Below the pieces are notes generated by a model. That model was not told the origin of the DNA and searched no databases. It was given only the letters and a program-made list of their open reading frames with translations. Made by a program: the position numbers and the translations under genes. 64,000 nt of DNA. It comes from Parcubacteria group bacterium Greene0416_39. GTDB lineage: Bacteria > Patescibacteriota > Minisyncoccia > Minisyncoccales > UBA10102. The DNA lies in NCBI GenBank assembly GCA_007375675.1, contig VMEU01000003.1, forward strand, positions 8,692 through 72,691, written 5' to 3'. Positions 6,494 through 56,382 of the stretch are shown here, piece after piece; positions within the stretch are counted from its first letter, which is position 1; each line of letters begins with the position of its first letter.

Positions 6494-6570
6494 GCCGGCG
6501 TAGCTCAGTGGTTTAGAGCAGGGCCTTCATAAGGCCAAGGTCGGAGGTTCGATCCCTCCCGTCGGCACCA
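6494..6570 (+). tRNA. tRNA with CAU anticodon (Met elongator or Ile2), CCA encoded
   Basis: GCCGGCG TA GCTC AGTGGTTTA GAGC A GGGCC TTCATAA GGCCA AGGTC GGAGG TTCGATC CCTCC CGTCGGC A CCA. Confidence 0.85.
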
Positions 6571-6581
6571 AGAGAAATGAT

Positions 6582-7252
6582 ATGCCAATCCCTCGAACAA
6601 AAGATGAGACTTTCTTTAAGAGATGGACGCCAGAAATGGCTTACGTTCTGGGATTTATTACTGCGGATGGAGCTCTAATCAAAAATAAAAGAGGCGCAAA
6701 GTTTATAGAAATCCAATCGATAGATAAAGAATTGTTTATAAGATCCGAGAGGCACTACGATCAAATCTGGCGGTTGGAGAGTATCAACCAAAGCATCCGA
6801 ATCAAAATAAAAGATACCGACTCCAGATTGGTTCTAAACGGATGTATGCAGATTTATTGAAGCTTGGCCTTGTTGCTAGAAAAGCTTATCGAGTTCGAAT
6901 TCCAACAATTCCTTTTAATTATATAAGAGATTTTCTCCGTGGTTATTTTGATGGAGACGGAGGAGTATCCCTCTACCTATCTCATAAGAAAGATAGAAAA
7001 ACTCCTACAAGGGTACTATTGACCACATTCACAAGTTGTAGTAAGGGAATGCTTGACGATGTTGCTATAGTACTTTCTAAGGGAGGAGGTACTCGTTTGA
7101 AAATTTCTCAGAAGAAATGGGGTGACAATGCGTTTGAATTACGGTATAGTACTGTTGATAGTAGAAAGATCTATTACTTCCTTTATAGGAACCAGGATCA
7201 GTTATTTCTTAGAAGGAAAAAGATAGTTTTTGAGAAATATTTGCGGGCGTAG
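6582..7252 (+). pseudogene. free-standing double-motif LAGLIDADG homing endonuclease, -1 frameshifted
   Basis: Motif 1 is YVLGFITADGAL (ORF 6582..6860). Motif 2 is FLRGYFDGDGGV (ORF 6842..7252). The second frame is already open from 6728 and reads IVYKIREALRSNLAVGEYQ...YRLQIGSKRMYADLLKLGL, so the frames join near 6728-6735. Confidence 0.8.
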
Positions 7253-7317
7253 AGGAGTCTGGAGTCCTCGGATCCCTGTCACGGATCAAATCGTGGGTTC
7301 AAATCCCATCGCCCGCG
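7243..7317 (+). tRNA. tRNA-Asp (GUC)
   Basis: GCGGGCG TA GAGG AGTCTGGAGT CCTC G GATCC CTGTCAC GGATC AAATC GTGGG TTCAAAT CCCAT CGCCCGC G. Its first 10 nt overlap the LAGLIDADG stop codon. Confidence 0.9.
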
Positions 7318-7350
7318 CAGAAGATTTGGAATACAAGAATGAGAGGTGAT

Positions 7351-7674: not shown

Positions 7675-8397
7675 ATGCTCCAAGTTCCATCGGGCCGTGT
7701 CTTTGATGCATACGACGAACAAATGCTGAGGAAGTTTGTGCAGTATGGCTTTGTTCGCTGGAGCGAGGAACCTATAACTTTGAAGTCCGGAGTGCAAAGC
7801 CATGTCTATGTGTTCGGGAGGGAGGACCTTACCGACCACCCGGACCTGGAATGGCTTGTGGGGCGGAAGATTGCTGTCCTTGTGGCGGAGAATGCCCAGG
7901 AACGGTCAGACCTCAAACAGCAGTGCCTGATCGGCGTGCCGACAGCTGGCACGGCACTTGCCCAAGCAGGAAGCATGGTAAATTATATTCAGAAACGCCA
8001 CCTGGGAGGACCTTCTGCACTACGGGTTATCCATCGCATCATGCGAGAAGACCTGAAGATCCATGGGGCGCATCCTGACTGGGTGAACGGGAAGGCGCAG
8101 CCGGAGCTTCATACCTACTGGACAGTAGATAACGTAGTTACGGATGGCGGGTCCAAGCTGGAGACCCAGAATCGACTGCAGGAAAGCGGTTATCCCGTAG
8201 AGGATATGCCCTCTCTCGTGTTCGTGGACAGGCAGCAAGGCGGCATTGTCAACATGGAAAAAGCCGGATTCCGCAACATCGTTGTCGCCTATAACCTCCT
8301 AGATATCACCTTTGCCCTTGGTAAACTCGAGCTCTGGCCAAGGGACGCGGTGCAGGCCGTAGGGGAGGAAATCGAGGCACATCAGCTCATTTCATAG
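7675..8397 (+). CDS. type I phosphoribosyltransferase, OPRT(PyrE)-like
   Basis: ITLKSGVQSHVYVFG (OPRT-like N-terminal motif) and PRPP loop TVDNVVTDGGSKLE. SD GGAAGGAG. GC-richer than its neighbours. Confidence 0.6.
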   Translation: MLQVPSGRVFDAYDEQMLRKFVQYGFVRWSEEPITLKSGVQSHVYVFGREDLTDHPDLEWLVGRKIAVLVAENAQERSDLKQQCLIGVPTAGTALAQAGSMVNYIQKRHLGGPSALRVIHRIMREDLKIHGAHPDWVNGKAQPELHTYWTVDNVVTDGGSKLETQNRLQESGYPVEDMPSLVFVDRQQGGIVNMEKAGFRNIVVAYNLLDITFALGKLELWPRDAVQAVGEEIEAHQLIS

Positions 8398-8426: not shown

Positions 8427-8460
8427 GCCGCCAGACACCTGTCCTGGCGGCTTTTTGTTT
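8427..8460 (+). terminator. rho-independent terminator
   Basis: GCCGCCAG / CTGGCGGC followed by TTTTTGTTTT. Confidence 0.7.
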
Positions 8461-8623
8461 TCGTAAACTATCTTGTTATCATTGCCATAGCAGAATTAAC
8501 AAGATATCTCACAATTGTTGCTCGAGCATAAATAAAGAGAATTGGGGATATTTACCCCTGTGGAAAAGATGTCTCCAAAGGAGTTGATTTCCCCTTTATT
8601 TTAAGGTAAAATAGATAGGGCGT

Positions 8624-9751
8624 ATGAACATTGAGATCAGCTTAAAAGAAGAGCAGGAACTAAGAAAATTGCTCCAAAAAAGAGATGATCCGGAAGCCAA
8701 AAGAATGCTTCGGTTTTTGAATATGCCGGATTTATCGCGTACGCAAGGCAGTCCGATTGCGGCAATCATAGAACGGGTGAAAAAAGTGCCTGTGTTGAAA
8801 AACTTTGACGATATTACTATCCCCGAGATTGTTTCAACCCATGTTCTTTTCGATCTCTTCAATATGCCTCCCGGTCATCCGGCTCGCAGCACATCAGACT
8901 CTTATTATGTAGATGAGGGGCACATCCTGATAACCCACGACACCGTGATGTGGTATTTCTATCTGAACCACCCTGATATAAAGAAAAAGATCGAGCAGGG
9001 TGAAGACCTGGGGGTCATCTGCTACGCCAAAGTCTACCGCAAAGACGAAATAGACAGAGAGCACATGAACGTTTTCCATCAGTTTGGCGGACTGTATTTG
9101 GTGCGCGACGATAAAAAAACCTTGACCATTGAGGATTTGAAGAACGCCCTTACCGAGATAGCGCAGAGCATTTTTAACAAAGGCATAAAGATCCGCTTCA
9201 ACCCGGACAATTTTCCCTACACAGATCCCAGTTTAGAAATGGAGATTGAGATAAACGGTCAGTGGATCGAGATGCTAGGTTGTGGTATGGCCCGTAAAAG
9301 CGTTTTGGCCAATTTTGGTCTTACCGGATACCACGGCTGGGCGTTCGGCTTCGGGCTTGAACGCATGGCCATTGTCAGCATGCAGTTGCCTGATATTCGG
9401 CTGTTGTGGTCAGAGGATCCTCGGGTAAAAAAGCAGCTTACGCTAGACAATGTCTATATTCCAGTGAGCAAGTACCCTGCGATCACCCGGGACATATCTT
9501 TTGTCGTGGACAAAGATTTCGTGCCCAACAACTACTTTGACCTGATACGTGATATCGCAGGCGACCTGGCTGAGGAGGTTCAACTCATTGATACGTATGA
9601 AGACGCAGAGAAGTTTGGGTCTGGGGTAAGTTATACGTATCGAATAATATACCAAAGTACTGAAAAAACATTAACGAGTGCAGAGATTGACCTGCTCCAA
9701 GACCAACTATATAAACAGACAGCCAAACAATTTAGTGCTGTGTTTCGTTAA
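8624..9751 (+). CDS. pheS: phenylalanyl-tRNA synthetase, single-chain form (alpha-type catalytic core fused to FDX-ACB/B8-like anticodon-binding domain)
   Basis: GHPARSTSDSYY, VYRKDEIDREHMNVFHQFGG, FPYTDPSLEMEI, GWAFGFGLERMA. C-terminal SKYPAITRDISFVVDKD...YRIIYQSTEKTLTSAEID resembles the PheT C-terminal domain. gyrB starts 2 nt after the stop. Confidence 0.85.
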   Translation: MNIEISLKEEQELRKLLQKRDDPEAKRMLRFLNMPDLSRTQGSPIAAIIERVKKVPVLKNFDDITIPEIVSTHVLFDLFNMPPGHPARSTSDSYYVDEGHILITHDTVMWYFYLNHPDIKKKIEQGEDLGVICYAKVYRKDEIDREHMNVFHQFGGLYLVRDDKKTLTIEDLKNALTEIAQSIFNKGIKIRFNPDNFPYTDPSLEMEIEINGQWIEMLGCGMARKSVLANFGLTGYHGWAFGFGLERMAIVSMQLPDIRLLWSEDPRVKKQLTLDNVYIPVSKYPAITRDISFVVDKDFVPNNYFDLIRDIAGDLAEEVQLIDTYEDAEKFGSGVSYTYRIIYQSTEKTLTSAEIDLLQDQLYKQTAKQFSAVFR

Positions 9752-9752
9752 A

Positions 9753-11684
9753 ATGAAAGAAAAACCTACAAATAAATACACGGCTAAGGACATTGACGTT
9801 CTGCAAGGGTTAGAGCCAGTGCGGAAAAGACCTGCCATGTATATTGGTTCCACAGGCCCTGACGGCTTGCACCATTTGATTTGGGAAATTCTAGATAATG
9901 CCATTGACGAAGCAATGGCAGGATATGCAAAAAACATTGATATTACCTTGCTGCCTGAAGATAAGGTTTTTGTGAAAGATGACGGCCGAGGAATTCCCAT
10001 AGACATACATCGCCAAACAAAGAAATCTGCCCTAGAAACCGTTTTGACAACCTTGCACGCCGGAGCAAAGTTTGGAGGCAAAGCATACCAGGTTTCAGGA
10101 GGTTTGCATGGGGTGGGAGCTTCAGTGGTGAACGCGCTCTCGCTTCACATGAAGGCCCAGGTATGCCGGGAAGGAACAAGGTATGAACAAGAGTATGCAA
10201 AAGGGAAAGCCATAACAAAACTTAAAAAAGTGGGGCCGTGCAGGGACCGCGGCACGACAATTGAGTTTGAGCCAGATAGAAGTATTTTTGGACAAGTTAT
10301 CAAGTTTGAGGATAAACGCATTCTCAACCACCTTCGCCAGCAAGCGTATCTCACTTCAGGGGTGCGAATAACGTTTCTTGACGCAAGAGAAAAAGGTAAA
10401 CTGCCATACACCTTCTATTTTGAAGGAGGAGTGGCTTCCTACGTGAAATACCTTACGAGAGGAGTTTCTCCTCATCACGAGAATTTGTTCTATATAAAAG
10501 GAGAGAAAGAAGAAATTCTCGTGGAAGTTGCATTCCGATACACGGAGGAATTTGAGATTTACGAGGAGAGCTTTGCCAATAACATTCCTACTAAAGAAGG
10601 AGGAACGCACCTTACAGGATTCAAAGCAGCTCTAACCCGCGGCATCAACGATTACGCAAAGAAAAATAATGTGTTTAAAAACGGCGACGAAGGGCTTACC
10701 GGAGATGATGTGAGAGAAGGGTTGACCGCAGTGGTCTCGGTAAAAATTAAGGAGCCGCAGTTTGAGGGCCAGACAAAGGCAAAACTTGGAAACCCTGAAG
10801 CAAAAAATGCCGTGGAGTCAGTAGTGGCAGAAGGGCTTGCGGATTTCTTTGAAAGAAATCCGCAAGACGCAAAGCTCATCATTGAGAAATGTTTGCTGTC
10901 TTCTAAGGCTCGCAAAGCCGCCAAGGCGGCCCGCCAAACCATTTTAAGAAAAGGGATTTTAGAAGGCCTCGCTCTGCCAGGCAAGCTCGCAGACTGCGCG
11001 TCCAAAGACCCAGAAGAATCAGAACTATACCTGGTGGAAGGAGAGTCTGCGGGCGGCTCGGGCAAGCAGGCGCGAGACAGAAGGTTCCAGGCGATTTTGC
11101 CCCTACGAGGAAAAATTCTTAACGTGGAGCGGGCTCGTTTGGATAAGATGCTTGAGTCAAAAGAGATCAAAAACCTTATCATCGCGTTGGGTACTGCCAT
11201 AGCAGAAGATTTTGACATTGAAAAACTCCGCTACCATAGAGTTATAATCATGTGCGACGCAGATTCAGACGGAAACCATATTCGCACCCTTATCCTTACA
11301 CTGTTTTATCGGTACTTCCGTGTTTTGGTTGAACGAGGATATATCTATATTGCCCAGCCGCCCTTATATAAAATCCAAACGGGAAAACGCCTTGAATACG
11401 CCTATTCAGAAGAGGGGAAAGACAAGATTGTAGCAGCACTCAAAAAAGAAGGGAACGTCTCCCAAAAGCCAAATCTCCAGCGCTACAAAGGGTTGGGAGA
11501 AATGAACCCAATGGAACTTTGGGAAACCACCATGAACCCTGAAAAGCGCACACTCTTGCAGGTGACCATTGAAGACACAAAAGAAGCAGACCGCATCTTT
11601 GACATTTTAATGGGCGACGAGGTACTACCCAGGAAAAAGTTTATACAGACGTATGCCAAATCAGTGAGAAACCTTGACATTTAG
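9753..11684 (+). CDS. gyrB: DNA gyrase subunit B
   Basis: LEPVRKRPAMYIGSTG, GHKL ATPase and TOPRIM (EGESAGGS), PLRGKILNVE. Start chosen at MKEKPTNKY (ATG 9753). Confidence 0.95.
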   Translation: MKEKPTNKYTAKDIDVLQGLEPVRKRPAMYIGSTGPDGLHHLIWEILDNAIDEAMAGYAKNIDITLLPEDKVFVKDDGRGIPIDIHRQTKKSALETVLTTLHAGAKFGGKAYQVSGGLHGVGASVVNALSLHMKAQVCREGTRYEQEYAKGKAITKLKKVGPCRDRGTTIEFEPDRSIFGQVIKFEDKRILNHLRQQAYLTSGVRITFLDAREKGKLPYTFYFEGGVASYVKYLTRGVSPHHENLFYIKGEKEEILVEVAFRYTEEFEIYEESFANNIPTKEGGTHLTGFKAALTRGINDYAKKNNVFKNGDEGLTGDDVREGLTAVVSVKIKEPQFEGQTKAKLGNPEAKNAVESVVAEGLADFFERNPQDAKLIIEKCLLSSKARKAAKAARQTILRKGILEGLALPGKLADCASKDPEESELYLVEGESAGGSGKQARDRRFQAILPLRGKILNVERARLDKMLESKEIKNLIIALGTAIAEDFDIEKLRYHRVIIMCDADSDGNHIRTLILTLFYRYFRVLVERGYIYIAQPPLYKIQTGKRLEYAYSEEGKDKIVAALKKEGNVSQKPNLQRYKGLGEMNPMELWETTMNPEKRTLLQVTIEDTKEADRIFDILMGDEVLPRKKFIQTYAKSVRNLDI

Positions 11685-11742: not shown

Positions 11743-11934
11743 ATGAATGCTTTTTCTCGCATTGTTGAATTTTTAAAGGAGGCAAGGGTTGAAGCGAAGA
11801 AAGTGGCTTGGCCGTCTAAAAAACAAGTGGTGCGCCATACTATAGTAGTGGTTGCGTTATCTTTGTTTGTTGCAGTTATCCTCGGGGCCTTTGATTTCAT
11901 TTTTGCAACCATTCTTGAAAGATTTATCTTGTAA
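11743..11934 (+). CDS. secE: preprotein translocase subunit SecE
   Basis: 63 aa, EARVEAKKVAWPSKKQ plus a single TM helix. Located upstream of nusG. Confidence 0.85.
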   Translation: MNAFSRIVEFLKEARVEAKKVAWPSKKQVVRHTIVVVALSLFVAVILGAFDFIFATILERFIL

Positions 11935-11946
11935 GGAAAAGCGAAC

Positions 11947-12492
11947 ATGGCTAAACAACAGCTTGCCCAAGAAAGAAACTGGTACGTCATTCATACCTAT
12001 TCAGGGTATGAAGACGCGGTAGCAAGAAACCTCAAGCAGAGAATTGAGTCTTTGGGCATGCAAGACAAAATCTTTTCTGTTTTGGTTCCCAAAGAAAAGA
12101 AAATCAAAATCAAGAATGGGAAGAGAAAGCTCGTGGAAGAGAAAATTTATCCAGGATACGTGTTAGTTGAGATGATTGTTACCGATGATTCTTGGTATGT
12201 GGTGCGCAACACGCCAAACGTGACAGGATTTGTGGGTTCTGGCACCACGCCAATTCCTGTGGAGACGGCAGAGATTGAATCTTTGAAGAAACGCATGGGC
12301 GTGGATGAACCTCTCTACCTAATTGAAGTGGAGCCAGGAGATGTGGTAAAGATAACAGACGGGCCCTTTCGCGACTTTGAAGGCAAGGTTTCCAATGTGG
12401 ATCAGGAACGGGGCAAGGTAAAGGTGCTGGTGAATATGTTTGGCCGAGATACCCCTGTTGAGTTAGATTCCCTGCAAATTAAGAAGTTATAA
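11947..12492 (+). CDS. nusG: transcription termination/antitermination factor NusG
   Basis: WYVIHTYSGYEDAV NGN domain and KOW (GDVVKITDGPFRDFEGKV). Confidence 0.93.
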   Translation: MAKQQLAQERNWYVIHTYSGYEDAVARNLKQRIESLGMQDKIFSVLVPKEKKIKIKNGKRKLVEEKIYPGYVLVEMIVTDDSWYVVRNTPNVTGFVGSGTTPIPVETAEIESLKKRMGVDEPLYLIEVEPGDVVKITDGPFRDFEGKVSNVDQERGKVKVLVNMFGRDTPVELDSLQIKKL

Positions 12493-12575: not shown

Positions 12576-12998
12576 ATGGCAAAAAAAATCAAAAAACTTG
12601 TAAGATTGCACATTGCTGCGGGGGCCGCAACGCCTGCCCCTCCTGTTGGCCCGAGCCTAGCTCAGCACGGCGTGAATATTGGGGAGTTTTGCAAAAAATT
12701 CAATGACCTTACGAAAGATAAGGCAGGCTTTAAGATTCCCGTTGATATTACAATTTATGAAGATCGGAGCTATGATATGAAACTCCACGAGCCGCCAGCT
12801 TCCTCGTTGCTCAAAAAGGCTGCTGGGGTTGAAAAGGGCTCTGGAACTCCAAACAAAACAAAGGTAGGCAAAATCTCAAAAAGTCAGCTTGAAGACATTG
12901 CCCGCCAAAAAATGGTTGACTTGAATACAGAAGACCTTCAGAGTGCAATAAGAATTATTGAGGGCACAGCGAAGAACATGGGTATTACAATAGAATAA
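12576..12998 (+). CDS. rplK: 50S ribosomal protein L11
   Basis: [34 protein letters not shown]. Confidence 0.95.
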
Positions 12999-13001
12999 AG
13001 T

Positions 13002-13583
13002 ATGATACTTTCTGACCAAGACATTAAAAAATATATTGCAGAAGGCAAGATACAAGTGTACCCTGCGCCGGATTTTGAAGCTCAGCTTGGGCCTTGTTCT
13101 CTTGACCTTCACTTGGGCAGCAGCTTTAAGGTTTTTAGGCAATCTCAATACCCCTACATTGATCTCAAACGTAAGATTAACCTTGAAGAAGTGATGGAAG
13201 AAATTCAGGTTGCAGAAGACGGCGGCCCGTTTATACTTCAGCCAAAAGATTTTGTGTTGGCAATCACAAAAGAATCTTTTACGCTTCCAAATGATCTGAT
13301 GGGGCGTCTCGACGGAAGGAGTTCACTTGGCCGCCTTGGCATGGTGGTACATTCCACTGCTGCTCGTTTTGACCCTGGTTGGTCAGGAAAGGCAGTGATG
13401 GAACTCGGAAACCTTGGAATTATGCCCGTGGTTCTGTATTCTGGGATGAGAGTGTGTGCCCTCACATTTGAGACGCTCTCGAGCCCCTGTGAAACCCCCT
13501 ATGGCACAAAATCAACACATAAATACGCTTCCCAAGAGTCTCCCCAAGCAAGCAAAATCAACAAGGAGTTTGAAGGAAAATAG
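13002..13583 (+). CDS. dcd: dCTP deaminase
   Basis: MILSDQDIKKYI...GPCSLDLHLG, GRSSLGRLG, DPGWSG motifs. Confidence 0.85.
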   Translation: MILSDQDIKKYIAEGKIQVYPAPDFEAQLGPCSLDLHLGSSFKVFRQSQYPYIDLKRKINLEEVMEEIQVAEDGGPFILQPKDFVLAITKESFTLPNDLMGRLDGRSSLGRLGMVVHSTAARFDPGWSGKAVMELGNLGIMPVVLYSGMRVCALTFETLSSPCETPYGTKSTHKYASQESPQASKINKEFEGK

Positions 13584-13584
13584 A

Positions 13585-14538
13585 TTAGAAGCCGCCAACG
13601 ACGGTGATTTCGCCTTTGATTGGGGGGTGGGGGTCGTAGCCTTCGATGGTAATATCGTCGAACGTAAACTCGTCGATATTTTTTATTTGAGGATTCAGCT
13701 TGAGCGTGGGGAATGGGCGTGGGTCTCTTAAAAGCTGTTCTTTCACCTGGTCGAAGTGGTTGTTGTATATATGCACGTCGCCGAATGTGTGCACAAACTC
13801 GCCAGGTTCGTATCCCGTCACGTGAGCTATCATATGGGTCAACAAGGCATAGCTTGCGATATTAAAAGGCACTCCAAGAAACATATCTGCGGAGCGTTGA
13901 TACAGCTGGAGCGATAGTTTTCCGTTCGCTATATAAAACTGGAACATGGTGTGGCAAGGAGGCAAGGCCATTGCCTGTTCTGGGGTTGCTGCCATTTCAT
14001 AGACATATTCCGGGTTCCAGGCCGAAACAATATAATGTTTGCGGTCAGGGTGTGACTTGAGTTTTGGAACTACCCAAGCTAATTGATCAATTTCTCTGCC
14101 ATCGGATGTTTTCCACCTCCGCCACTGTTTTCCATAGACTGGTCCAAGCTCGCCCCATTGTTTGGCAAATTCATTATCTTCTTTAATCTTCGTGGTAAAG
14201 TCGTCTTGGCTCATTTTGGGAACTGCGCCGGTTTCCATCGCTTTCTTGTAATTTTTATATGCCCATTCGTCCCAAATGTGCACATTATTATCTACAAGAT
14301 ATTTAATATTCGAATCGCCCTTCAAAAACCACAAAAGCTCGTGAACAATCCCTCTCCAAAAAACCTTTTTTGTAGTTAAGAGAGGGAATCCCTGTGAAAG
14401 ATCAAATCGGATTTGCCTGCCAAACACCGATTTTATCTCAGCATCGGTATTGTGTACTCCTTTTGTTACCCCACTTCCTAAAATATCTCTGAGTAGATTG
14501 AGATATTGGTACTCGGGATGTTGAGAATTGGAAATCAT
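13585..14538 (-). CDS. thyA: thymidylate synthase ThyA (long, L. casei-type with small-domain insert)
   Basis: [27 protein letters not shown], catalytic [29 protein letters not shown] at 14538. The track's upstream TTG is at 14556. Confidence 0.92.
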
Positions 14539-14555
14539 TATGATACTATACCACA

Positions 14556-15047
14556 ATGAAAGCGTTTATCATAGCAGCCCTCACCGCAGACGGGTTTATC
14601 GCAAAAAGTTCCCAGCATCTTACAGATTGGACAAGCAAGGAAGACAAACATTTTTTTGTGGAGAAAACCAAGCAGGCAGGGGTAGTCGTATTTGGCCAGA
14701 ATACCTTTGAAACCATTAGGAAACCGTTGAAAGATCGTTTGACCATTGTCTATTCCAAAGATAAGCAGTATGAGGGCGTAGAGGTGACACAAAAAGATCC
14801 TCGAGAGCTTTTGGAAGATTTGGAAAAAAGGGGATACAAAGAGGTTGCAATCTGCGGGGGAGCGACTATTTACACCATGTTTATGCAAGCAGGAGTGGTA
14901 GACAAACTATACTTGAGCGTTGAACCAGTGTTTTTTGGCCAGGGTCTTACGCTTTTTACTAAAGAGCTCGACAAGAAATTAGAGCTTGTATCTGTACAAA
15001 AACTTGGCGACCACACCGTTCTTTTGGAATACATCGTAACAAACTAA
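14556..15047 (+). CDS. folA: dihydrofolate reductase family protein (RibD_C-like)
   Basis: 163 aa, [16 protein letters not shown]...[12 protein letters not shown]...AICGGATIY. Located next to thyA. Confidence 0.7.
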
Positions 15048-15048
15048 T

Positions 15049-15603
15049 ATGGTTCTGGGAATTAAGGAATTGCAAATACTTGTAAAAGAAAAGGGTCTTG
15101 TGCAAGGACTTTCTGAACGCGAACTCACCAACCCAGAGGGCGCGGGATTTGATTTGAGGATAGGGGAGTTGTATGAGGTTTCAGGCCAGGGATTTCTTGG
15201 GATAGAGCAGAGAGAAACTCCTGAAATGAAATTGATAGAGAAATATGAAGCGAGCACGTCCGCCGACGAGGCGGAAAAAATAGTACTACTTAAGCCCCAT
15301 ACCTATTACGTAATGAAAACCGTGGAAGAGGTGAATATGCCAGAAAATTTGCTGGCAATTATGACTCCACGTTCTACGTTATTTCGTTCTGGCGTGTATG
15401 TCTTTGGAGGCCAGGTTCCTCCAGGGTACAAAGGAGGGCTCAGTATGGGTATCTATAATTATCGAGACACCGATTTTCGCCTAGAGATGGGCGCACGAGT
15501 GGTGCACATTATGTTTTTTGAGGTTAAGGGAGAAGGAAATCTGTACCGCGGCCAGTGGCAAGGCGGCAGAGTAACCACAGACCAAAAAGAAACCCAAGTA
15601 TAA
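15049..15603 (+). CDS. dCTP deaminase/dUTPase-superfamily protein (second paralog)
   Basis: PEGAGFDLRIG, TPRSTLFRSG, PPGYKGGL. These are Dcd/Dut-fold motifs. Confidence 0.7.
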   Translation: MVLGIKELQILVKEKGLVQGLSERELTNPEGAGFDLRIGELYEVSGQGFLGIEQRETPEMKLIEKYEASTSADEAEKIVLLKPHTYYVMKTVEEVNMPENLLAIMTPRSTLFRSGVYVFGGQVPPGYKGGLSMGIYNYRDTDFRLEMGARVVHIMFFEVKGEGNLYRGQWQGGRVTTDQKETQV

Positions 15604-16286
15604 TGCAAAAGAATACGTATCCGGGGAAATTTATTGTGTTTGAGGGGATTGATGGTTCGGGGAAATCTATACAGTTAAAATTATTGCTTAATCGTCTGAA
15701 AAAAGAAGGGTACAATACTGCGTTTTTTGATTTTCCTCAATACGGGAAAAAATCTGCTGGTCTAGCAGAGGAATATCTATCTGGTGCATATGGGTCTGCC
15801 AGAGAGGTGGGGCCTTTTCGTTCTTCCATTTTTTATGCTTGCGATAGGTATGACGCGAGTTTTCAGTTGAAGAAATATCTTAAAGAAGGAAGAATTGTTG
15901 TGAGTGACCGCTATGTTGGATCAAATATGGCCCATCAAGGAGGGAAGATAAAATCTCAAAAAGAAAGAGAGAAATTCTTCGCTTGGCTCCATGAACTGGA
16001 ATATGAGATATTTGGAATTCCAAAACCAACAAAGTCTTTCTTTTTGCATGTACCCCTAGAGATAGCAGGCAAACTTCGGGAAAATCCTGAGCGCCGAAAG
16101 AAAAAGAAAAAAGATATTCACGAAACAGACTTTGAACATCTCAAAAATGCCCAGCACGCGTATCTTCATGCAATGAAGGTATTTCCAAAAGATTTCACCG
16201 CCATTGAATGCGCGCCCAAAGGAATATTGCTTGCGCCTAAAATAATCCATGAAAAAATCTGGAAAGAAGTAAAAAAGCTTCTATGA
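15603..16286 (+). CDS. tmk: thymidylate kinase
   Basis: FIVFEGIDGSGKS P-loop. ATG overlaps the preceding stop (TAATG). Confidence 0.9.
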   Translation: MQKNTYPGKFIVFEGIDGSGKSIQLKLLLNRLKKEGYNTAFFDFPQYGKKSAGLAEEYLSGAYGSAREVGPFRSSIFYACDRYDASFQLKKYLKEGRIVVSDRYVGSNMAHQGGKIKSQKEREKFFAWLHELEYEIFGIPKPTKSFFLHVPLEIAGKLRENPERRKKKKKDIHETDFEHLKNAQHAYLHAMKVFPKDFTAIECAPKGILLAPKIIHEKIWKEVKKLL

Positions 16287-19196: not shown

Positions 19197-20750
19197 CTAA
19201 TGGATTTCTTCCTTTTTCTCCTTCCAGAAGTTTCTCAACTGCTCAATGAACTCCACAAACACCTGAAACGGAGCTTCAATAAGCACGTTGAGCATTACTA
19301 CGAGAACGTTGTAGCGAGCGAGCTTCCCTGAAAACCATTTTCCGGTTTGAACAATAGGAAGAGTAAAGAAATCAAAGAGTCCAGATAAGAATCCTTCTTT
19401 TTGTTCTAAAATCATGAGCTCTCTTGAACGCTGACGTATTTTTGTTCCCGCAAAGGCAACGAGAGAAAAGAAGAAAAGAAAAATGAGAATAGAGGGTAGG
19501 GTAAACTGGAGCTTGATAAGCCCCCAGGCAACAGCTCCAAATGAAACAAAGAATGTTGCCAGATACACGGTTTTTACAATAAAACTCACGAGGCCCTTCT
19601 TTTTTCTTTTGGGGAACGCAACTTCATGTCTATCTTTTCGTTCAGTTTCATAGGTAATCTTCATTATTTCTAAAAGAACTTTCTGAAGATTTTCTTCAGA
19701 AGAAGACGTCACGGTTAAAACCAAAAAGAGCAAAAACAGCGGGGGAATGGCAATGCTTAAAGCAGTTGCTTTTAGATTAAACTCATGGACTACATATTTG
19801 TCAAAAGGAACCTCCAGGGAAAGCGCAATCAAGACTTTTGAGAGGAATACCGAGACGGTACTGAAGAACGCGGCGCGGCCCATTCTTCCCTCAAGTTTTT
19901 TTAGGCGCGCATAGTATGCTTTCTTTAGGGTTTCCTCAAACTCTGCAGATACGAGAGCAAGACGAGAAAAGTCATTGGGATTTAAAGTCATGAGATCTCC
20001 AAGGAGCAAATAGGGAGTATCCAACCGTTCTATTACTTGATAAAACCTTTCTCCAACAGCATCGTGCAGGAGTTTTTCAATGCGTTTTCTTGCTTCAATG
20101 GGTTGCTCATGCCATTGAGGATAAAACTTTTCTAAAAGATGCAAAGAAATGGTTGCTTCGTCAAGCTTAAACAAAGCTCTTTGAACCGCGATTTCTATGT
20201 GAAGTTTTCGGTCTTCGTCTGAAAGTTCAGCTTCGTCTTTTTTTCTCAAGAATACCCGGGTCGCCATGTCTTGGCTCATGCACTCAATGAGGGCCCGTTC
20301 TCTTCTCGGATTGGAAAAAATTTCCTCAATTTTGCACGCTCCAATGGTAAGAATCCAGTCTTTTATGTCTTTTTGGTCTTTTGATTCAACGTGGTCGTGC
20401 AAAAAGACATATTTGTTCACAATAACCTGCACGGTCTCTACCATAGAAACAGGAACGCGCTTGTTGGGAAGATGGCCTCCCCGGATGAGTTCTTGTAAAA
20501 AGGCTTCGGCAAAATCTTTTTGGTCTCCTGCGAAGAGCACGCGACGCTTAAAGATTCTTTCAATCGCAGTTTTCCTTAAGAGATGCTCTTCTCTCCAATC
20601 AACAACCCCGCGAATCTTCTCGTAAAATGAAGCTACAGATGCCGCTACTTCATCAACGCTCAACACGGCTTCAGCTTCTTTTGGCTGGAGTTCTTGGTAC
20701 CACAACTGATATTGTTCAAGCAATTTTTTTGTTCCCTGTGACAATTCCAT
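19197..20750 (-). CDS. hypothetical multi-pass membrane protein (517 aa)
   Basis: Long ORF with a soluble N-terminal half and several C-terminal TM helices. No family recognised. Confidence 0.65.
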   Translation of the reverse strand: MELSQGTKKLLEQYQLWYQELQPKEAEAVLSVDEVAASVASFYEKIRGVVDWREEHLLRKTAIERIFKRRVLFAGDQKDFAEAFLQELIRGGHLPNKRVPVSMVETVQVIVNKYVFLHDHVESKDQKDIKDWILTIGACKIEEIFSNPRRERALIECMSQDMATRVFLRKKDEAELSDEDRKLHIEIAVQRALFKLDEATISLHLLEKFYPQWHEQPIEARKRIEKLLHDAVGERFYQVIERLDTPYLLLGDLMTLNPNDFSRLALVSAEFEETLKKAYYARLKKLEGRMGRAAFFSTVSVFLSKVLIALSLEVPFDKYVVHEFNLKATALSIAIPPLFLLFLVLTVTSSSEENLQKVLLEIMKITYETERKDRHEVAFPKRKKKGLVSFIVKTVYLATFFVSFGAVAWGLIKLQFTLPSILIFLFFFSLVAFAGTKIRQRSRELMILEQKEGFLSGLFDFFTLPIVQTGKWFSGKLARYNVLVVMLNVLIEAPFQVFVEFIEQLRNFWKEKKEEIH

Positions 20751-54165: not shown

Positions 54166-56382
54166 CTACTTCAGGTTTTTGCCGCTGTGGAACTGGCGGT
54201 GGACATCACGAAGCTGTTTTGAAGTCACGTGAGCGTATATTTGGGTTGTAGCTGGATTTTTATGCCCCAGGAATTCTTGGATTAACCGAAGGTCTACCCC
54301 CTGCGAGAGAAGGTCGGTGGCAAAGGAGTTATGGCTTATAAACCCATCAGTGATAAGGTTGCCATGCCATCTACTAATGCCAAAGTCATATACCGAATAA
54401 CGAGGCGAAGAAGAAACTTTCGTTTTTTCATGGAGCTTCAACCATTGAATGGTATCTGCATACGCAATCTTTTTTAACTGGGCCAAGTACTGGGAATTGT
54501 AGCCAGCGTCTTCTAGTTGCTGTACAATATGTTGCACAGTTTTGCGGCTTGGGTTGAGTTTTTCTATGTATCTGCCTATATCGTTGATGCTGTAGTTTCT
54601 CCGCAAGGCCTGGATCCACTGAATCTTTTTTCGTGTTGTATCCTTTCGTATGACTTCAAGGAGCGGTCCCACTGGTAGTTTCTGGCCCTGGAAATGTTTT
54701 TCTACGTTCAGAAAACGTCTTTTGAATGTTTTTATGTGTTCCAAAAATAGCTCCTGATCCGGTTTGTGGAGGATATGGAGCGTATAAAATTTGTGGGAGA
54801 ATAAACGCTTTTGAGGCAATATTACTGTTCTATTGCGCCAGTTGAGATGGGAGTCTATTCCAAACCTCAAGAGTCCCATTTGAACGTCTTTAAGGAGTTC
54901 TACGCTTGAAGAAAATATCCTTATATTGCCCGAGTTTCCTTCGGCATCGTAGAATCCTGCGAGAAACTCGGCTAGTTCGTTCAGTGGCGCAGAAAGCATT
55001 TCCTTGGGCATTCGTCGGCCATTAGCGCCTGGTTCAAAACCAATCTGGAGTAGAAACTCCACAAGCTCGGCGTTATAAACAGTAAGCTGCCAAGAGTTGC
55101 TGACTTTACTTTTTTTTAGGGTTGGGACGACATAGAACAATTCATTAATCCAATTCATATAACTCTTGAGCATCTCTTTGTTTTTGTCTGTAAGAAGAAC
55201 CGCGCGCCTAGCTCTACTTACCGTACCGTCTCCGTAGATATACCCAAGGATTCTTGCAAAACGGGGATGTACGAATGGCTTTCCTTGGATTGTTATCTTT
55301 TTCACTCCCATGACGTAGTCACCAATCTTTAGCTCCCTTGCTTGTTTTTCTTCTATGCCTTTTTTCCCTATCGTGAAAAGTCTGTGATTGGGGGAACAAA
55401 GAAGGTTATAGCCACCAGCCCATAAAGAAAGGAGAGGAGTAATATGGTAGCTTCGCTCTTTCAGAGTAAGATTTTGGAATTGAAAACCTGCCCATTCGAG
55501 TGCCTGAACTTCTGCGGACGTTTTAAAATATAAATCCCGTGCCGATACAATACCATCACGTAAAACTATTCGCGTGGTAGGGGAGAGGCAGTGGCGCAAC
55601 GTATGAGGAGTGGTAAAAGAGGGGACACCCGCACGGAGTGCGTATTGCTTCACGATATTCTCAATAGAACGGGCGGAGAGTCGTTTTGAGGCGTTTTTTG
55701 GCCCCCTGTAATTGATGAATAAGGGTTTTTCATCGTCTCTCCGGGTCTTAAGATATTCCTTGAGAGCGTTTACGGCACGCTCCGAAAAGTAGACTGGGCG
55801 AACTCGCCCACCCTTTCCGGTGATTACCACTTCAAGCTGCGTAGTATCGGAAGATATCTTGATCTGTTCTCGGTCAAGACTCACAAGTTCCGCCACCCGC
55901 AGGCCCGTAGAGAAGAAACTTTCGAGGATCGCACGATCCCGCAGTCCTGCATTTGTGGAAGAATTGGGTGCCGCGAGAAGTTTCTTGAGCTGTTCGAGAT
56001 TTAAAAACTTTACTTTGCGTTCTTCTTTTTCCCGGATAAGTTTTATTTTATCTGCTGGGAGAGAAAGAATGTTTCGTTCGGTAAAGAATGACAGCAGGGA
56101 TCTTACAGCTATAAGATAATAGTTCTGCGTAGAACGCTTCAGAGGTTCTTTAGTAGTCTTGTGGAGGGTTTGAGAAAGAAAGAGGCGATAGTCCCAGATG
56201 TGCTGGTCGTCAAGCTCGTGAGGTTTTAGGGATTGGAGGTTTTGTGAGGAAAACCAATCAGAAAATTTTTTTAAGAATCTTGCGTATGTTTCCTGGCTTT
56301 TGTATCCCAAACCTTTCTCAACGTCACAATATTCAAGAAAATCTTTTATATGTTCAGTAATGGTTTTTTTGCTTTTTTGCAT
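54166..56382 (-). CDS. Xer/phage-integrase-family tyrosine recombinase containing an intein
   Basis: Exteins are residues 1-264 and 686-738: SAM-like N-domain, STGLRVAELVSL, TPHTLRH | SFATDLLSQGVDLRLIQEFLGHKNPATTQIYAHV. Confidence 0.88.
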   Translation of the reverse strand: MQKSKKTITEHIKDFLEYCDVEKGLGYKSQETYARFLKKFSDWFSSQNLQSLKPHELDDQHIWDYRLFLSQTLHKTTKEPLKRSTQNYYLIAVRSLLSFFTERNILSLPADKIKLIREKEERKVKFLNLEQLKKLLAAPNSSTNAGLRDRAILESFFSTGLRVAELVSLDREQIKISSDTTQLEVVITGKGGRVRPVYFSERAVNALKEYLKTRRDDEKPLFINYRGPKNASKRLSARSIENIVKQYALRAGVPSFTTPHTLRHCLSPTTRIVLRDGIVSARDLYFKTSAEVQALEWAGFQFQNLTLKERSYHITPLLSLWAGGYNLLCSPNHRLFTIGKKGIEEKQARELKIGDYVMGVKKITIQGKPFVHPRFARILGYIYGDGTVSRARRAVLLTDKNKEMLKSYMNWINELFYVVPTLKKSKVSNSWQLTVYNAELVEFLLQIGFEPGANGRRMPKEMLSAPLNELAEFLAGFYDAEGNSGNIRIFSSSVELLKDVQMGLLRFGIDSHLNWRNRTVILPQKRLFSHKFYTLHILHKPDQELFLEHIKTFKRRFLNVEKHFQGQKLPVGPLLEVIRKDTTRKKIQWIQALRRNYSINDIGRYIEKLNPSRKTVQHIVQQLEDAGYNSQYLAQLKKIAYADTIQWLKLHEKTKVSSSPRYSVYDFGISRWHGNLITDGFISHNSFATDLLSQGVDLRLIQEFLGHKNPATTQIYAHVTSKQLRDVHRQFHSGKNLK
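54328..55590 (-). mobile_element. 421-aa intein with LAGLIDADG homing-endonuclease domain
   Basis: Cys1 codon TGC at 55590-55588 (CLSPTTRIVLRDG). CSPNHRLF block B. ILGYIYGDGTV and FLAGFYDAEGN. Terminal ..GFISHN (AAC at 54330-54328) followed by Ser+1. Confidence 0.85.

What the first reader, a model, noticed from the sequence alone, without database searches (positions are those of the whole stretch)
8624..9751. Single-chain, mitochondrial-type phenylalanyl-tRNA synthetase
The 375-aa protein joins a PheS-type class II catalytic core (GHPARSTSDSYY; VYRKDEIDREHMNVFHQFGG; FPYTDPSLEMEI; GWAFGFGLERMA) directly to a ~95-aa C-terminal domain (SKYPAITRDISFVVDKDF...YRIIYQSTEKTLTSAEID). That C-terminal domain has the pattern of the FDX-ACB/B8 anticodon-binding domain normally found at the C-terminus of the beta subunit PheT.

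No pheT follows, since gyrB starts 2 nt after the stop. This core-plus-B8 architecture is the one known for monomeric mitochondrial PheRS. Several motif stretches resemble it as I recall it: PDIRLLWSEDPRVKKQL here versus PDIRLFW..DERFLKQF. Canonical bacterial PheRS is an (alpha-beta)2 heterotetramer.
Basis: partly seen in the sequence, partly recalled or inferred. Interest (0 to 1): 0.65.

Follow-up and report, generated by a model that had tools for sequence, protein, structure and literature searches.

The report
Single-chain bacterial phenylalanyl-tRNA synthetase
This Parcubacteria (CPR) bacterium very probably charges tRNA-Phe with a 375-residue one-chain enzyme built like the mitochondrial one, and the gene sits exactly where related bacteria keep the usual two-subunit pheS-pheT genes.

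Summary
ORF 8624-9751(+) encodes 375 aa: a PheS-type class II core (Pfam tRNA-synt_2d, 4.7e-53) joined to an FDX-ACB/B8 anticodon-binding domain (1.1e-23). gyrB starts 2 nt after the stop. The closest solved relative is human mitochondrial PheRS, by sequence (4e-55) and by fold (AF2 model pLDDT 90.7, TM 0.77 to 3cmq).

New evidence came from 80 nusG-anchored loci of other Parcubacteria species. The slot just upstream of gyrB-secE-nusG-rplK holds canonical pheS-pheT in 39 loci, a single-chain gene in 13, and never both. A fully tabulated Parcubacteria genome (Minisyncoccus, 866 genes) has only pheS-pheT.

The protein evolves more slowly than GyrB or L11 and keeps the catalytic and Phe-pocket residues. 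It is therefore most likely the cell's only PheRS, without the beta subunit and its editing domain.

In trees, bacterial single-chain enzymes form a clade (100%) sister to mitochondrial and related eukaryote-type PheRS. They are not nested in Parcubacteria PheS. This points to repeated in-situ displacement rather than a local fusion.

Absence of pheST from the whole genome could not be checked. Only 84 kb was seen. No paper describing this was found.

The parts
8427..8460 (+). Terminator-like hairpin that closes the upstream 240-aa ORF (GCCGCCAG, 9-nt loop, CTGGCGGC, then TTTTTGTTTT)
   Evidence: Read directly from the sequence. The consensus scan missed it because the loop exceeds 8 nt.
8584..8612 (+). 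Sigma-70-like promoter match TTGATT-17-TAAAAT, 12 nt before the ATG. This is weak evidence.
   Evidence: 9 of 12 matches. The number of such sites in the region equals the shuffle expectation, so this is only a candidate.
8624..9751 (+). Single-chain PheRS gene, 375 aa plus the TAA stop
8624..8737 (+). N-terminal helical hairpin, residues 1-38. It carries the bacterial single-chain signature R..D.EA.R...FL.MPDLSRT.GSP. The long PheS coiled coil (PF02912) is absent.
   Evidence: AF2 helices at 8-19 and 23-33. The motif is shared with P0121, P0126, P0283 and P0243. There is no PF02912 hit.
8738..9436 (+). Class IIc catalytic core, residues 39-271. Motif 2 Arg is R139 and motif 3 Arg is R247. The Phe pocket is FPYT (197-200) and GWAFG (238-242).
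   Evidence: Pfam PF01409. Residue mapping to E. coli gives R195, R301, T251 and A294. The roles of T251 and A294 come from PMC3275996.
9437..9466 (+). Short linker, residues 272-281, between the PheS C-terminal tail and the B8 domain
   Evidence: Domain limits and the alignment.
9467..9748 (+). FDX-ACB (B8) ferredoxin-fold anticodon-binding domain, residues 282-375
   Evidence: Pfam PF03147, 1.1e-23, full length. It matches the C-termini of PheT chains in PDB (1.9e-6) and E. coli PheT residues 700-794.
9753..11684 (+). gyrB, with its ATG 2 nt after the PheRS stop. It is the first gene of the conserved block gyrB-secE (11743-11934)-nusG (11947-12492)-rplK (12576-12998) that anchors the PheRS slot across Parcubacteria.

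Best explanation
The gene encodes the organism's housekeeping phenylalanyl-tRNA synthetase. It is a single polypeptide of the mitochondrial (PheRS-M/FARS2) design. The PheS-type core activates Phe with ATP and transfers it to tRNA-Phe. The fused B8/FDX-ACB domain reads the GAA anticodon. [quoted passage not shown]

There are no B1-B7 domains, so there is no B3/B4 editing of Tyr-tRNA-Phe. By analogy with human mtPheRS, the anticodon-binding domain should swing from a closed to an open position to accept the tRNA.

In Parcubacteria this gene has displaced the pheS-pheT pair in situ, directly upstream of gyrB-secE-nusG-rplK, and it did so more than once.

Shown here: the architecture, the fold, conservation of catalytic residues, alternative and non-overlapping occupancy of the slot at the loci seen, slow evolution, and phylogenetic placement. 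Inferred: enzymatic activity, monomeric state, loss of editing, and absence of pheST from the rest of this genome.
For: 1. Domains and fold. PF01409 plus PF03147. The best PDB sequence match is human mtPheRS at 4e-55, against 2e-36 for bacterial PheS. The AF2 model (pLDDT 90.7) superposes on closed mtPheRS 3cmq over the whole chain with TMq 0.77-0.78.

2. Catalytic residues. Conserved in all 12 window-type sequences aligned (the 26-sequence A1 alignment agrees): H85, R88, R139 (Ec R195), D144, H147, Q153, E216, R247 (Ec R301). The Phe-pocket determinants are T200 (Ec T251, hm T235) and A240 (Ec A294).

3. The slot. Of 80 Parcubacteria species loci anchored on nusG, 39 have canonical pheT (36 of them with pheS visible), all but one upstream of gyrB-secE-nusG; in L044 the pheT-gyrB pair lies on the opposite strand, downstream of nusG. 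Another 14 have a single-chain gene, 13 of them no more than 1.1 kb upstream of gyrB. None has both. A published bin, PMX.50, shows pheS-pheT-gyrB.

4. Single system per genome. The complete gene table of Minisyncoccus PMX_810_sub (866 genes) has exactly one PF01409 and one PF03147/PF03484, all canonical, and no single-chain gene.

5. Slow evolution. Between the same genome pairs the protein is 68-70% identical. GyrB is 55-65%, L11 is 51-57%, GatB is 52% and NusG is 71-73%.

6. Local absence. There is no pheS or pheT in the window or its 10-kb flanks, 84 kb in all.
Against: The whole genome could not be scanned, so a canonical pheST elsewhere is not excluded.

The window protein scores below the curated cut-offs of all three relevant NCBIfam models: pheS_mito 225 against 258, pheS 166 against 237, and SrmL 218 against 300.

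The acidic residue equivalent to E. coli E210 is Gly155 in the window clade, in 11 of the 12 window-type sequences aligned. Its role in holding the substrate amino group is from memory. It is Asp or Glu in every other single-chain and mitochondrial group and mostly Glu in canonical PheS. Y199 also replaces the pocket residue Phe (Ec F250).

No tRNA-Phe gene lies in the window to check identity elements. No biochemical data exist.
Confidence: 0.85

Rival explanations
1. It is an accessory PheS-like paralogue that coexists with a canonical pheST encoded elsewhere in the genome. It would do something other than bulk Phe-tRNA-Phe synthesis, for example act as an analogue-resistant spare or as a 'mystery ligase' like NCBIfam SrmL.
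For: NCBIfam NF051887 'PheS-related mystery ligase SrmL' matches residues 65-366 with 217.6 bits, so a bacterial family of the same architecture with unknown function exists. Non-CPR relatives (P0124 from an Oligoflexia MAG, and P0289) lie among metabolic and glycosyltransferase genes, not housekeeping genes. The Gly155 and Tyr199 changes sit in the active site. The whole genome was not seen.
Against: The SrmL cut-off of 300 bits is not reached. The gene occupies the very slot where relatives keep pheS-pheT, and the two never occur together at the 53 loci where a PheRS gene was seen. It is among the slowest-evolving genes of the region, in genomes of well under 1 Mb that rarely keep redundant synthetases. 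The PheT profile search returned no named PheT from the lineages that carry the single-chain gene, but that test had little power.
Confidence: 0.07
2. It is a recent local product. The resident pheS and the 3' end of the resident pheT fused in place by an in-frame deletion of B1-B7, independently of the mitochondrial enzyme, so the likeness to FARS2 would be convergent.
For: The gene sits exactly where pheS-pheT sits in relatives. The junction motif is simply the normal PheS C-terminal tail followed by the start of B8. Parcubacteria PheT proteins are already reduced and have lost B2 (PMC5370408).
Against: In the catalytic-core tree all 36 Parcubacteria canonical PheS group with E. coli PheS (100% bootstrap), apart from every single-chain sequence. 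The bacterial single-chain proteins form their own 100% clade next to the mitochondrial type. They are no closer to Parcubacteria PheS (distance 1.42) than to E. coli PheS (1.27). Signature residues are shared with mtPheRS and not with local PheS: YRKDEID, GWAFG, and LWS in the tail. B8 distances agree, 1.25 to mitochondrial against 1.67 to PheT.
Confidence: 0.05
3. It is an assembly, binning or gene-calling artefact: a truncated or frameshifted pheS-pheT, or eukaryotic contamination.
For: None specific. The source is a metagenome-assembled genome.
Against: The identical protein and neighbourhood appear in independent NCBI, ENA and Logan assemblies. Thousands of intact homologues of about 375-390 aa exist. 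The reading frame is uninterrupted and flanked by bacterial core genes and tRNAs.
Confidence: 0.01

Closest known systems
Mitochondrial/organellar monomeric PheRS (human FARS2, yeast MSF1; AARS Online family PheRS-M; TIGR00469; PDB 3cmq, 3tup)
   Same: The two-domain order is the same: PheS core, short linker, FDX-ACB. It is the best sequence and fold match over the whole chain. Signature residues are shared (YR[KR]DEID, GWAFG, PDIR.[LF]WS). Neither has a beta subunit or an editing domain. In the tree it is the sister group.
   Different: The window protein is bacterial and lies in a core operon, with no targeting peptide. It lacks the roughly 35-residue insertion of the human enzyme (human 166-202 has no counterpart). 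It has its own N-terminal helical hairpin and motif. It has Gly at the position of the conserved Glu/Asp (G155) and Tyr for Phe in FPFT. It scores 225 bits against the cut-off of 258.35, although the family representative P0121 passes at 264. It forms a separate bacterial clade and is not nested among the eukaryotic sequences.
Canonical bacterial (alpha-beta)2 PheRS, PheS plus PheT (TIGR00468/TIGR00472), including the Parcubacteria versions at the same locus
   Same: The catalytic core is homologous (E. coli PheS 2.5e-35) and so is the B8 domain. It occupies the same chromosomal slot upstream of gyrB. The function is presumably the same.
   Different: The window enzyme is one chain of 375 aa instead of about 340 plus 680-800 aa. 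It has no PF02912 coiled coil and no B1-B7 domains (B3/B4 editing, B5, the catalytic-like module). It scores below the pheS cut-off, 166 against 237. It is in a separate clade with 100% support.
NCBIfam NF051887 'PheS-related mystery ligase SrmL'
   Same: The profile (349 positions) aligns across both domains, residues 65-366, at 217.6 bits, so the architecture is the same.
   Different: The score is below the curated cut-off of 300, as it was for all ten representatives tested. No paper on SrmL was found, so its context and function could not be compared.
Organelle-like PheRS of giant viruses (Nucleocytoviricota; PMC11304981)
   Same: That paper reports that the viral PheRS group with bacterial and organellar, not cytosolic, PheRS. 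The roughly 350-aa proteins without a presequence in my representative set pass TIGR00469 and cluster with the mitochondrial sequences. They may be these viral enzymes.
   Different: They belong to the eukaryote-side clade (85%), not the bacterial one. Their viral origin was not verified here.

Membership tests
PheRS-M (mitochondrial-type single-chain PheRS) | One polypeptide with the class IIc PheS catalytic core followed by an FDX-ACB/B8 anticodon-binding domain | tested here: met
   PF01409 at 39-271 (4.7e-53) and PF03147 at 282-375 (1.1e-23).
PheRS-M (mitochondrial-type single-chain PheRS) | Three-dimensional likeness to solved mtPheRS over the whole chain | tested here: met
   AF2 pLDDT 90.7. 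Foldseek top hits are 3cmq, 5mgw and 8p8x, E about 1e-33, TMq 0.77-0.78. The open tRNA complex 3tup gives 0.60.
PheRS-M (mitochondrial-type single-chain PheRS) | Score above the curated equivalog cut-off of TIGR00469 (pheS_mito) | tested here: not met
   225 bits against 258.35. The 50%-cluster representative of the same Parcubacteria family, P0121, passes at 264.3. The model was built from eukaryotic sequences.
PheRS-M (mitochondrial-type single-chain PheRS) | Groups with mitochondrial PheRS to the exclusion of canonical PheS | tested here: met
   The split between canonical PheS and all single-chain sequences has 100% support. The bacterial single-chain clade (100%) is sister to the mitochondrial plus 350-aa clade (85%). 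The tree is NJ with 200 bootstraps on 198 columns.
PheRS-M (mitochondrial-type single-chain PheRS) | Catalytic and Phe-specificity residues retained | tested here: met
   The motif 2 and motif 3 arginines, H85, Q153, E216, T200 (Ec T251) and A240 (Ec A294) are conserved in all 12 window-type sequences aligned. Exceptions are G155 for Ec E210 and Y199 for Ec F250.
PheRS-M (mitochondrial-type single-chain PheRS) | Works without a beta subunit: no pheT in the genome, active as a monomer | tested here: inconclusive
   No pheS or pheT in 84 kb. At the 53 loci of other species where a PheRS gene was seen, it was either the single-chain gene or pheST, never both. The whole genome, the oligomeric state and the activity cannot be tested with these tools.
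Canonical bacterial PheS (TIGR00468) | N-terminal coiled-coil domain (PF02912), score above cut-off, adjacent pheT | tested here: not met
   No PF02912 hit. 165.9 bits against 237.45. The next gene is gyrB.
SrmL, PheS-related mystery ligase (NF051887) | Score above the curated cut-off of 300 bits | tested here: not met
   217.6 bits.

The most novel reading that the evidence does not exclude
The single-chain PheRS design is a bacterial invention, not a eukaryotic one. On this reading, mitochondrial FARS2 and the giant-virus PheRS descend from a single-chain enzyme of the kind now widespread in Parcubacteria/CPR. It would have been acquired by the eukaryotic stem lineage, rather than arising in early eukaryotes by fusion of an alphaproteobacterial pheS and pheT. 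The evidence allows this: both domains of the bacterial single-chain proteins are closer to mitochondrial PheRS than to any canonical PheS or PheT, and the bacterial clade is as deep as the eukaryotic one. The two clades are reciprocally monophyletic, so the direction of transfer is undetermined.
Probability: 0.3. Interest if true: 0.8.

Novelty: new member of a known kind. Interest (0 to 1): 0.65.

Why it matters
1. Bacterial PheRS is commonly described as an (alpha-beta)2 heterotetramer, with the one-chain enzyme an organellar oddity (PMC3275996). Here a one-chain enzyme appears to be the housekeeping PheRS of many lineages in a very large bacterial radiation. It has displaced pheS-pheT at the same chromosomal position several times.

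2. It implies that these bacteria translate without PheRS proofreading of Tyr or m-Tyr, as mitochondria do.

3. NCBI labels every named protein of this kind in the two hit lists 'hypothetical protein'. From memory, pheS (TIGR00468) and pheT (TIGR00472) are markers in the GTDB bac120 set. If so, these genomes would look as if they lack PheRS, which would bias completeness estimates and the phylogenomic data matrices built from such markers.

4. It gives the unexplained origin of mitochondrial FARS2 a bacterial sister group to test against.

5. A 375-residue, single-gene bacterial PheRS is an attractive minimal part for engineered translation systems.

Tried and rejected
- Literature. Eight full-text searches found no description of a bacterial or CPR single-chain PheRS, and nothing on 'SrmL'. 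The library is not exhaustive.

- Supplementary gene tables. Two gave nothing. Three gave the Minisyncoccus and PMX.50 data.

- Direct whole-genome check for pheST. This is not possible because the tools return at most 10 kb around a gene. I extended the window by 10 kb on each side only.

- Profile search with 15 Parcubacteria PheT sequences. It found 4216 PheT clusters, but few carry organism names, so it has almost no power to show absence from a given genome. It did not contradict the conclusion.

- In-situ fusion of the resident pheS and pheT. I considered this seriously after seeing the synteny, then rejected it on the trees and distances.

- The junction motif as evidence for a single fusion event. 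Rejected, because it is the normal PheS tail.

- B8-only tree. It is too short to resolve: the split between canonical and single-chain has only 31% support. Only the mean distances are used.

- Co-transfer of gyrB with the single-chain gene. Not supported. In the GyrB+NusG tree the carriers sit in separate, well supported host clades alongside canonical carriers.

- Method limit. No maximum-likelihood software was available, so all trees are neighbour-joining on Kimura-corrected distances.

Full report
**The observation**

The ORF at 8624-9751(+) is real. Pfam places a PheS-type class II core (PF01409) at residues 39-271 (E 4.7e-53). It places a full-length FDX-ACB domain (PF03147, positions 1-94 of 94) at residues 282-375 (E 1.1e-23, 83.9 bits against a cut-off of 31.1).

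The stop TAA is at 9749-9751 and the gyrB ATG at 9753. Upstream, a hairpin with a T-run (8427-8460) closes the preceding gene. A weak sigma-70-like match lies at 8584-8612.

tblastn of E. coli PheS and PheT against the whole window hits only this ORF. Pfam scans of the 20 largest other ORFs show housekeeping genes and no pheT.

**The organism**

The window is contig VMHA01000002.1 (173 kb) of GCA_007378945.1. A near-identical assembly, GCA_007376645.1, is named 'Parcubacteria group bacterium Greene0714_21', and there the protein is labelled 'hypothetical protein'. The 10 kb beyond each end of the window also lack pheS and pheT.

**What the protein resembles**

- The best solved relatives are the human mitochondrial PheRS entries (4e-55). 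Bacterial PheS chains follow at 2e-36. PheT chains match only the last 95 residues, at 1.9e-6.
- An AlphaFold2 model built on 26 homologues has mean pLDDT 90.7.
- The model superposes on closed-state human mtPheRS (3cmq, 5mgw, 8p8x) over the whole chain with TMq 0.77-0.78. The open tRNA complex 3tup gives 0.60. Bacterial PheS chains cover only the core, at about 0.54.
- NCBIfam gives pheS_mito 225 bits (cut-off 258.35), the 'PheS-related mystery ligase SrmL' 217.6 (cut-off 300) and pheS 165.9 (cut-off 237.45). No curated model claims the protein.
- The 50%-identity cluster representative of the same family (P0121) does pass pheS_mito, at 264.3.

**How common it is**

The word-indexed search returned 5837 proteins at E <= 1e-10. 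The best 120 were all 299-402 aa; 119 carry both Pfam domains and one, a 299-aa fragment, carries only PF01409. They come from Parcubacteria lineages such as Giovannonibacteria, Doudnabacteria and Minisyncoccia.

In the exhaustive search of 1.84 billion cluster representatives, the Parcubacteria family collapses to essentially one cluster. The next hits are a few other bacterial single-chain proteins, for example P0124 from an Oligoflexia MAG. After them comes a long list of eukaryote-type mitochondrial PheRS with targeting peptides, and 350-aa forms without them.

No full-length hit of canonical PheS type was seen among the best 150 (E <= 5e-34). These were screened by length, matched range and termini, not by domain search.

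**The central question: is this the only PheRS?**

The tools cannot read a whole genome, so I looked for indirect tests.

Published gene tables show that some Parcubacteria keep the canonical enzyme. Minisyncoccus PMX_810_sub (866 genes, table fully held) has exactly one PF01409 protein (pheS with PF02912). It has one PheT (B3/4, CLM, B5, FDX-ACB) and no single-chain gene.

In bin PMX.50 the order is pheS-pheT-gyrB. That is the position of the single-chain gene in the window. It is also its position in three distant relatives: PheRS, then 0-2 inserted genes, then gyrB-secE-nusG-rplK.

It fetched 80 loci from Nealson-, Wildermuth-, Staskawicz-, Sung-, Gribaldo-, Doudna-, Kerfeld-, Uhrbacteria and others. 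Classifying every ORF with phmmer gave the following:

| State of the locus | Loci |
|---|---|
| Canonical pheT (36 with pheS visible), all but L044 upstream of gyrB-secE-nusG | 39 |
| Single-chain gene (13 within 1.1 kb upstream of gyrB, same strand; L017 has it downstream of nusG) | 14 |
| Both | 0 |
| At least 5.9 kb visible upstream of gyrB, with neither | 5 |
| Upstream region not informative (cut short at or before gyrB, or no gyrB in the locus) | 22 |

The single-chain genes fall into two types. One is the window type (E 1e-159 to 1e-174 against the window protein). The other is a more distant 'Staskawicz type' (about 1e-105).

**Conservation**

Between the window and three genomes, the single-chain protein is 68-70% identical. 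GyrB is 55-65%, L11 is 51-57%, GatB is 52% and NusG is 71-73%. It is thus one of the slowest-evolving proteins of the region.

Conserved in all 12 window-type sequences aligned are the motif 2 arginine (R139 = Ec R195) and the motif 3 arginine (R247 = Ec R301), together with H85, R88, D144, H147, Q153 and E216. The two residues that set the size of the Phe pocket are also conserved: T200 (= Ec T251 = human T235) and A240 (= Ec A294) (roles from PMC3275996).

Two differences deserve attention.
- The acidic residue at Ec E210 is Gly155 in the window clade. It is Asp in the other bacterial single-chain clades and Glu or Asp in the mitochondrial enzymes.
- Tyr199 replaces the second Phe of FPFT.

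**Evolution**

A neighbour-joining tree of the catalytic core used 100 sequences, 198 columns and 200 bootstraps. It gives three groups:
- All canonical PheS, including the 36 Parcubacteria ones and E. coli (100%).
- All bacterial single-chain proteins (100%).
- The mitochondrial plus 350-aa group (85%).

The single-chain proteins are no nearer to Parcubacteria PheS (distance 1.42) than to E. coli PheS (1.27). Signature residues are shared with mtPheRS rather than with local PheS. The B8 domain is too short for a supported tree. Its distances agree, however: 1.25 to mitochondrial against 1.67 to PheT B8.

So the gene is not a recent local fusion of the resident pheS and pheT. In a GyrB+NusG host tree, window-type carriers fall in at least three separate host clades. 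Two of these are well supported (82-99%) and also contain canonical carriers; for example, a 99% clade holds L042 and L065 (single-chain) together with L076 and L077 (canonical). The window and L013 sit elsewhere in the tree, without bootstrap support. The Staskawiczbacteria clade (100%) is uniformly single-chain.

The simplest reading is repeated displacement of pheS-pheT by a horizontally moving single-chain gene, at the same position each time. Relatives outside the CPR (P0124, P0289) lie among non-housekeeping genes and may be accessory copies.

**Conclusion**

The gene most likely encodes the cell's sole PheRS. It is a bacterial member of the mitochondrial-type single-chain design, with no beta subunit and so no editing domain.

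Still unproven are the absence of pheST from the rest of the genome, the monomeric state, and the activity. The Gly155 substitution is unexplained.

I found no paper reporting a bacterial single-chain PheRS. AARS Online lists PheRS-M only with the human example. One study notes organelle-like PheRS in giant viruses. Whether the mitochondrial enzyme descends from this bacterial clade is open, because the two clades are reciprocally monophyletic in my tree.

Noticed in passing
window 6582-7252 (+): Two overlapping ORFs (92 and 136 aa) together look like a frameshifted LAGLIDADG homing endonuclease. They are wedged between tRNA-Met (6494-6570) and tRNA-Asp (7243-7318). The same broken arrangement is present in the other assemblies of this organism.
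   Followed up: partly
window 54166-56382 (-): A 738-aa Xer-type tyrosine recombinase (Phage_integrase in two pieces) is interrupted by an intein that carries a LAGLIDADG_3 domain.
   Followed up: no
L025 4601-9802, L042 4679-8398, L046, L051, L063, L065, L067, L068, L079, L091: GyrB in many related Parcubacteria is 887-1734 aa. It has large insertions at about residues 52, 436 and 505 of the window GyrB, presumably inteins at up to three sites. The window GyrB (643 aa) has none.
   Followed up: no
window 9086-9091 (residues 155-156 of the PheRS): In the window clade the conserved acidic residue of the motif HQ.[ED]G (E. coli E210) is Gly, giving HQFGG. This holds in 11 of the 12 window-type sequences aligned. 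The other bacterial single-chain clades have Asp, and mitochondrial and canonical enzymes mostly have Glu. How the substrate amino group is held is unexplained.
   Followed up: partly
L078 1022-1483: A stand-alone 154-aa ORF resembles E. coli PheT residues 40-145 (the B2/tRNA-binding OB fold, E 4e-20). It lies immediately upstream of the single-chain PheRS gene in one species (DASUKB010000001.1).
   Followed up: no
L012-L091, canonical pheT genes: Most Parcubacteria PheT proteins (about 665-720 aa) align to E. coli PheT only from about residue 154 on, so they lack the B2 domain. This agrees with a remark in PMC5370408. Kerfeldbacteria (L083, 796 aa) keeps it. PheRS thus appears in three sizes within one radiation.
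   Followed up: partly
window 13002-16286: A compact thymidylate cluster: dCTP deaminase, ThyA (minus strand), DHFR, a second DCD/dUTPase-like gene and thymidylate kinase. It sits directly after rplK and is partly conserved in relatives.
   Followed up: no
window 7675-8397 (+) and 19197-20750 (-): ORFs of 240 aa and 517 aa have no Pfam match. The 240-aa gene lies directly upstream of the PheRS gene and is seen only in the near-identical assemblies.
   Followed up: no
(database names): Every named NCBI entry for these single-chain proteins in the two hit lists reads 'hypothetical protein', while canonical Parcubacteria PheT proteins are named correctly. JGI calls the single-chain proteins 'PheS alpha chain'. 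Annotated carriers therefore appear to have no PheRS, or only half of one.
   Followed up: partly
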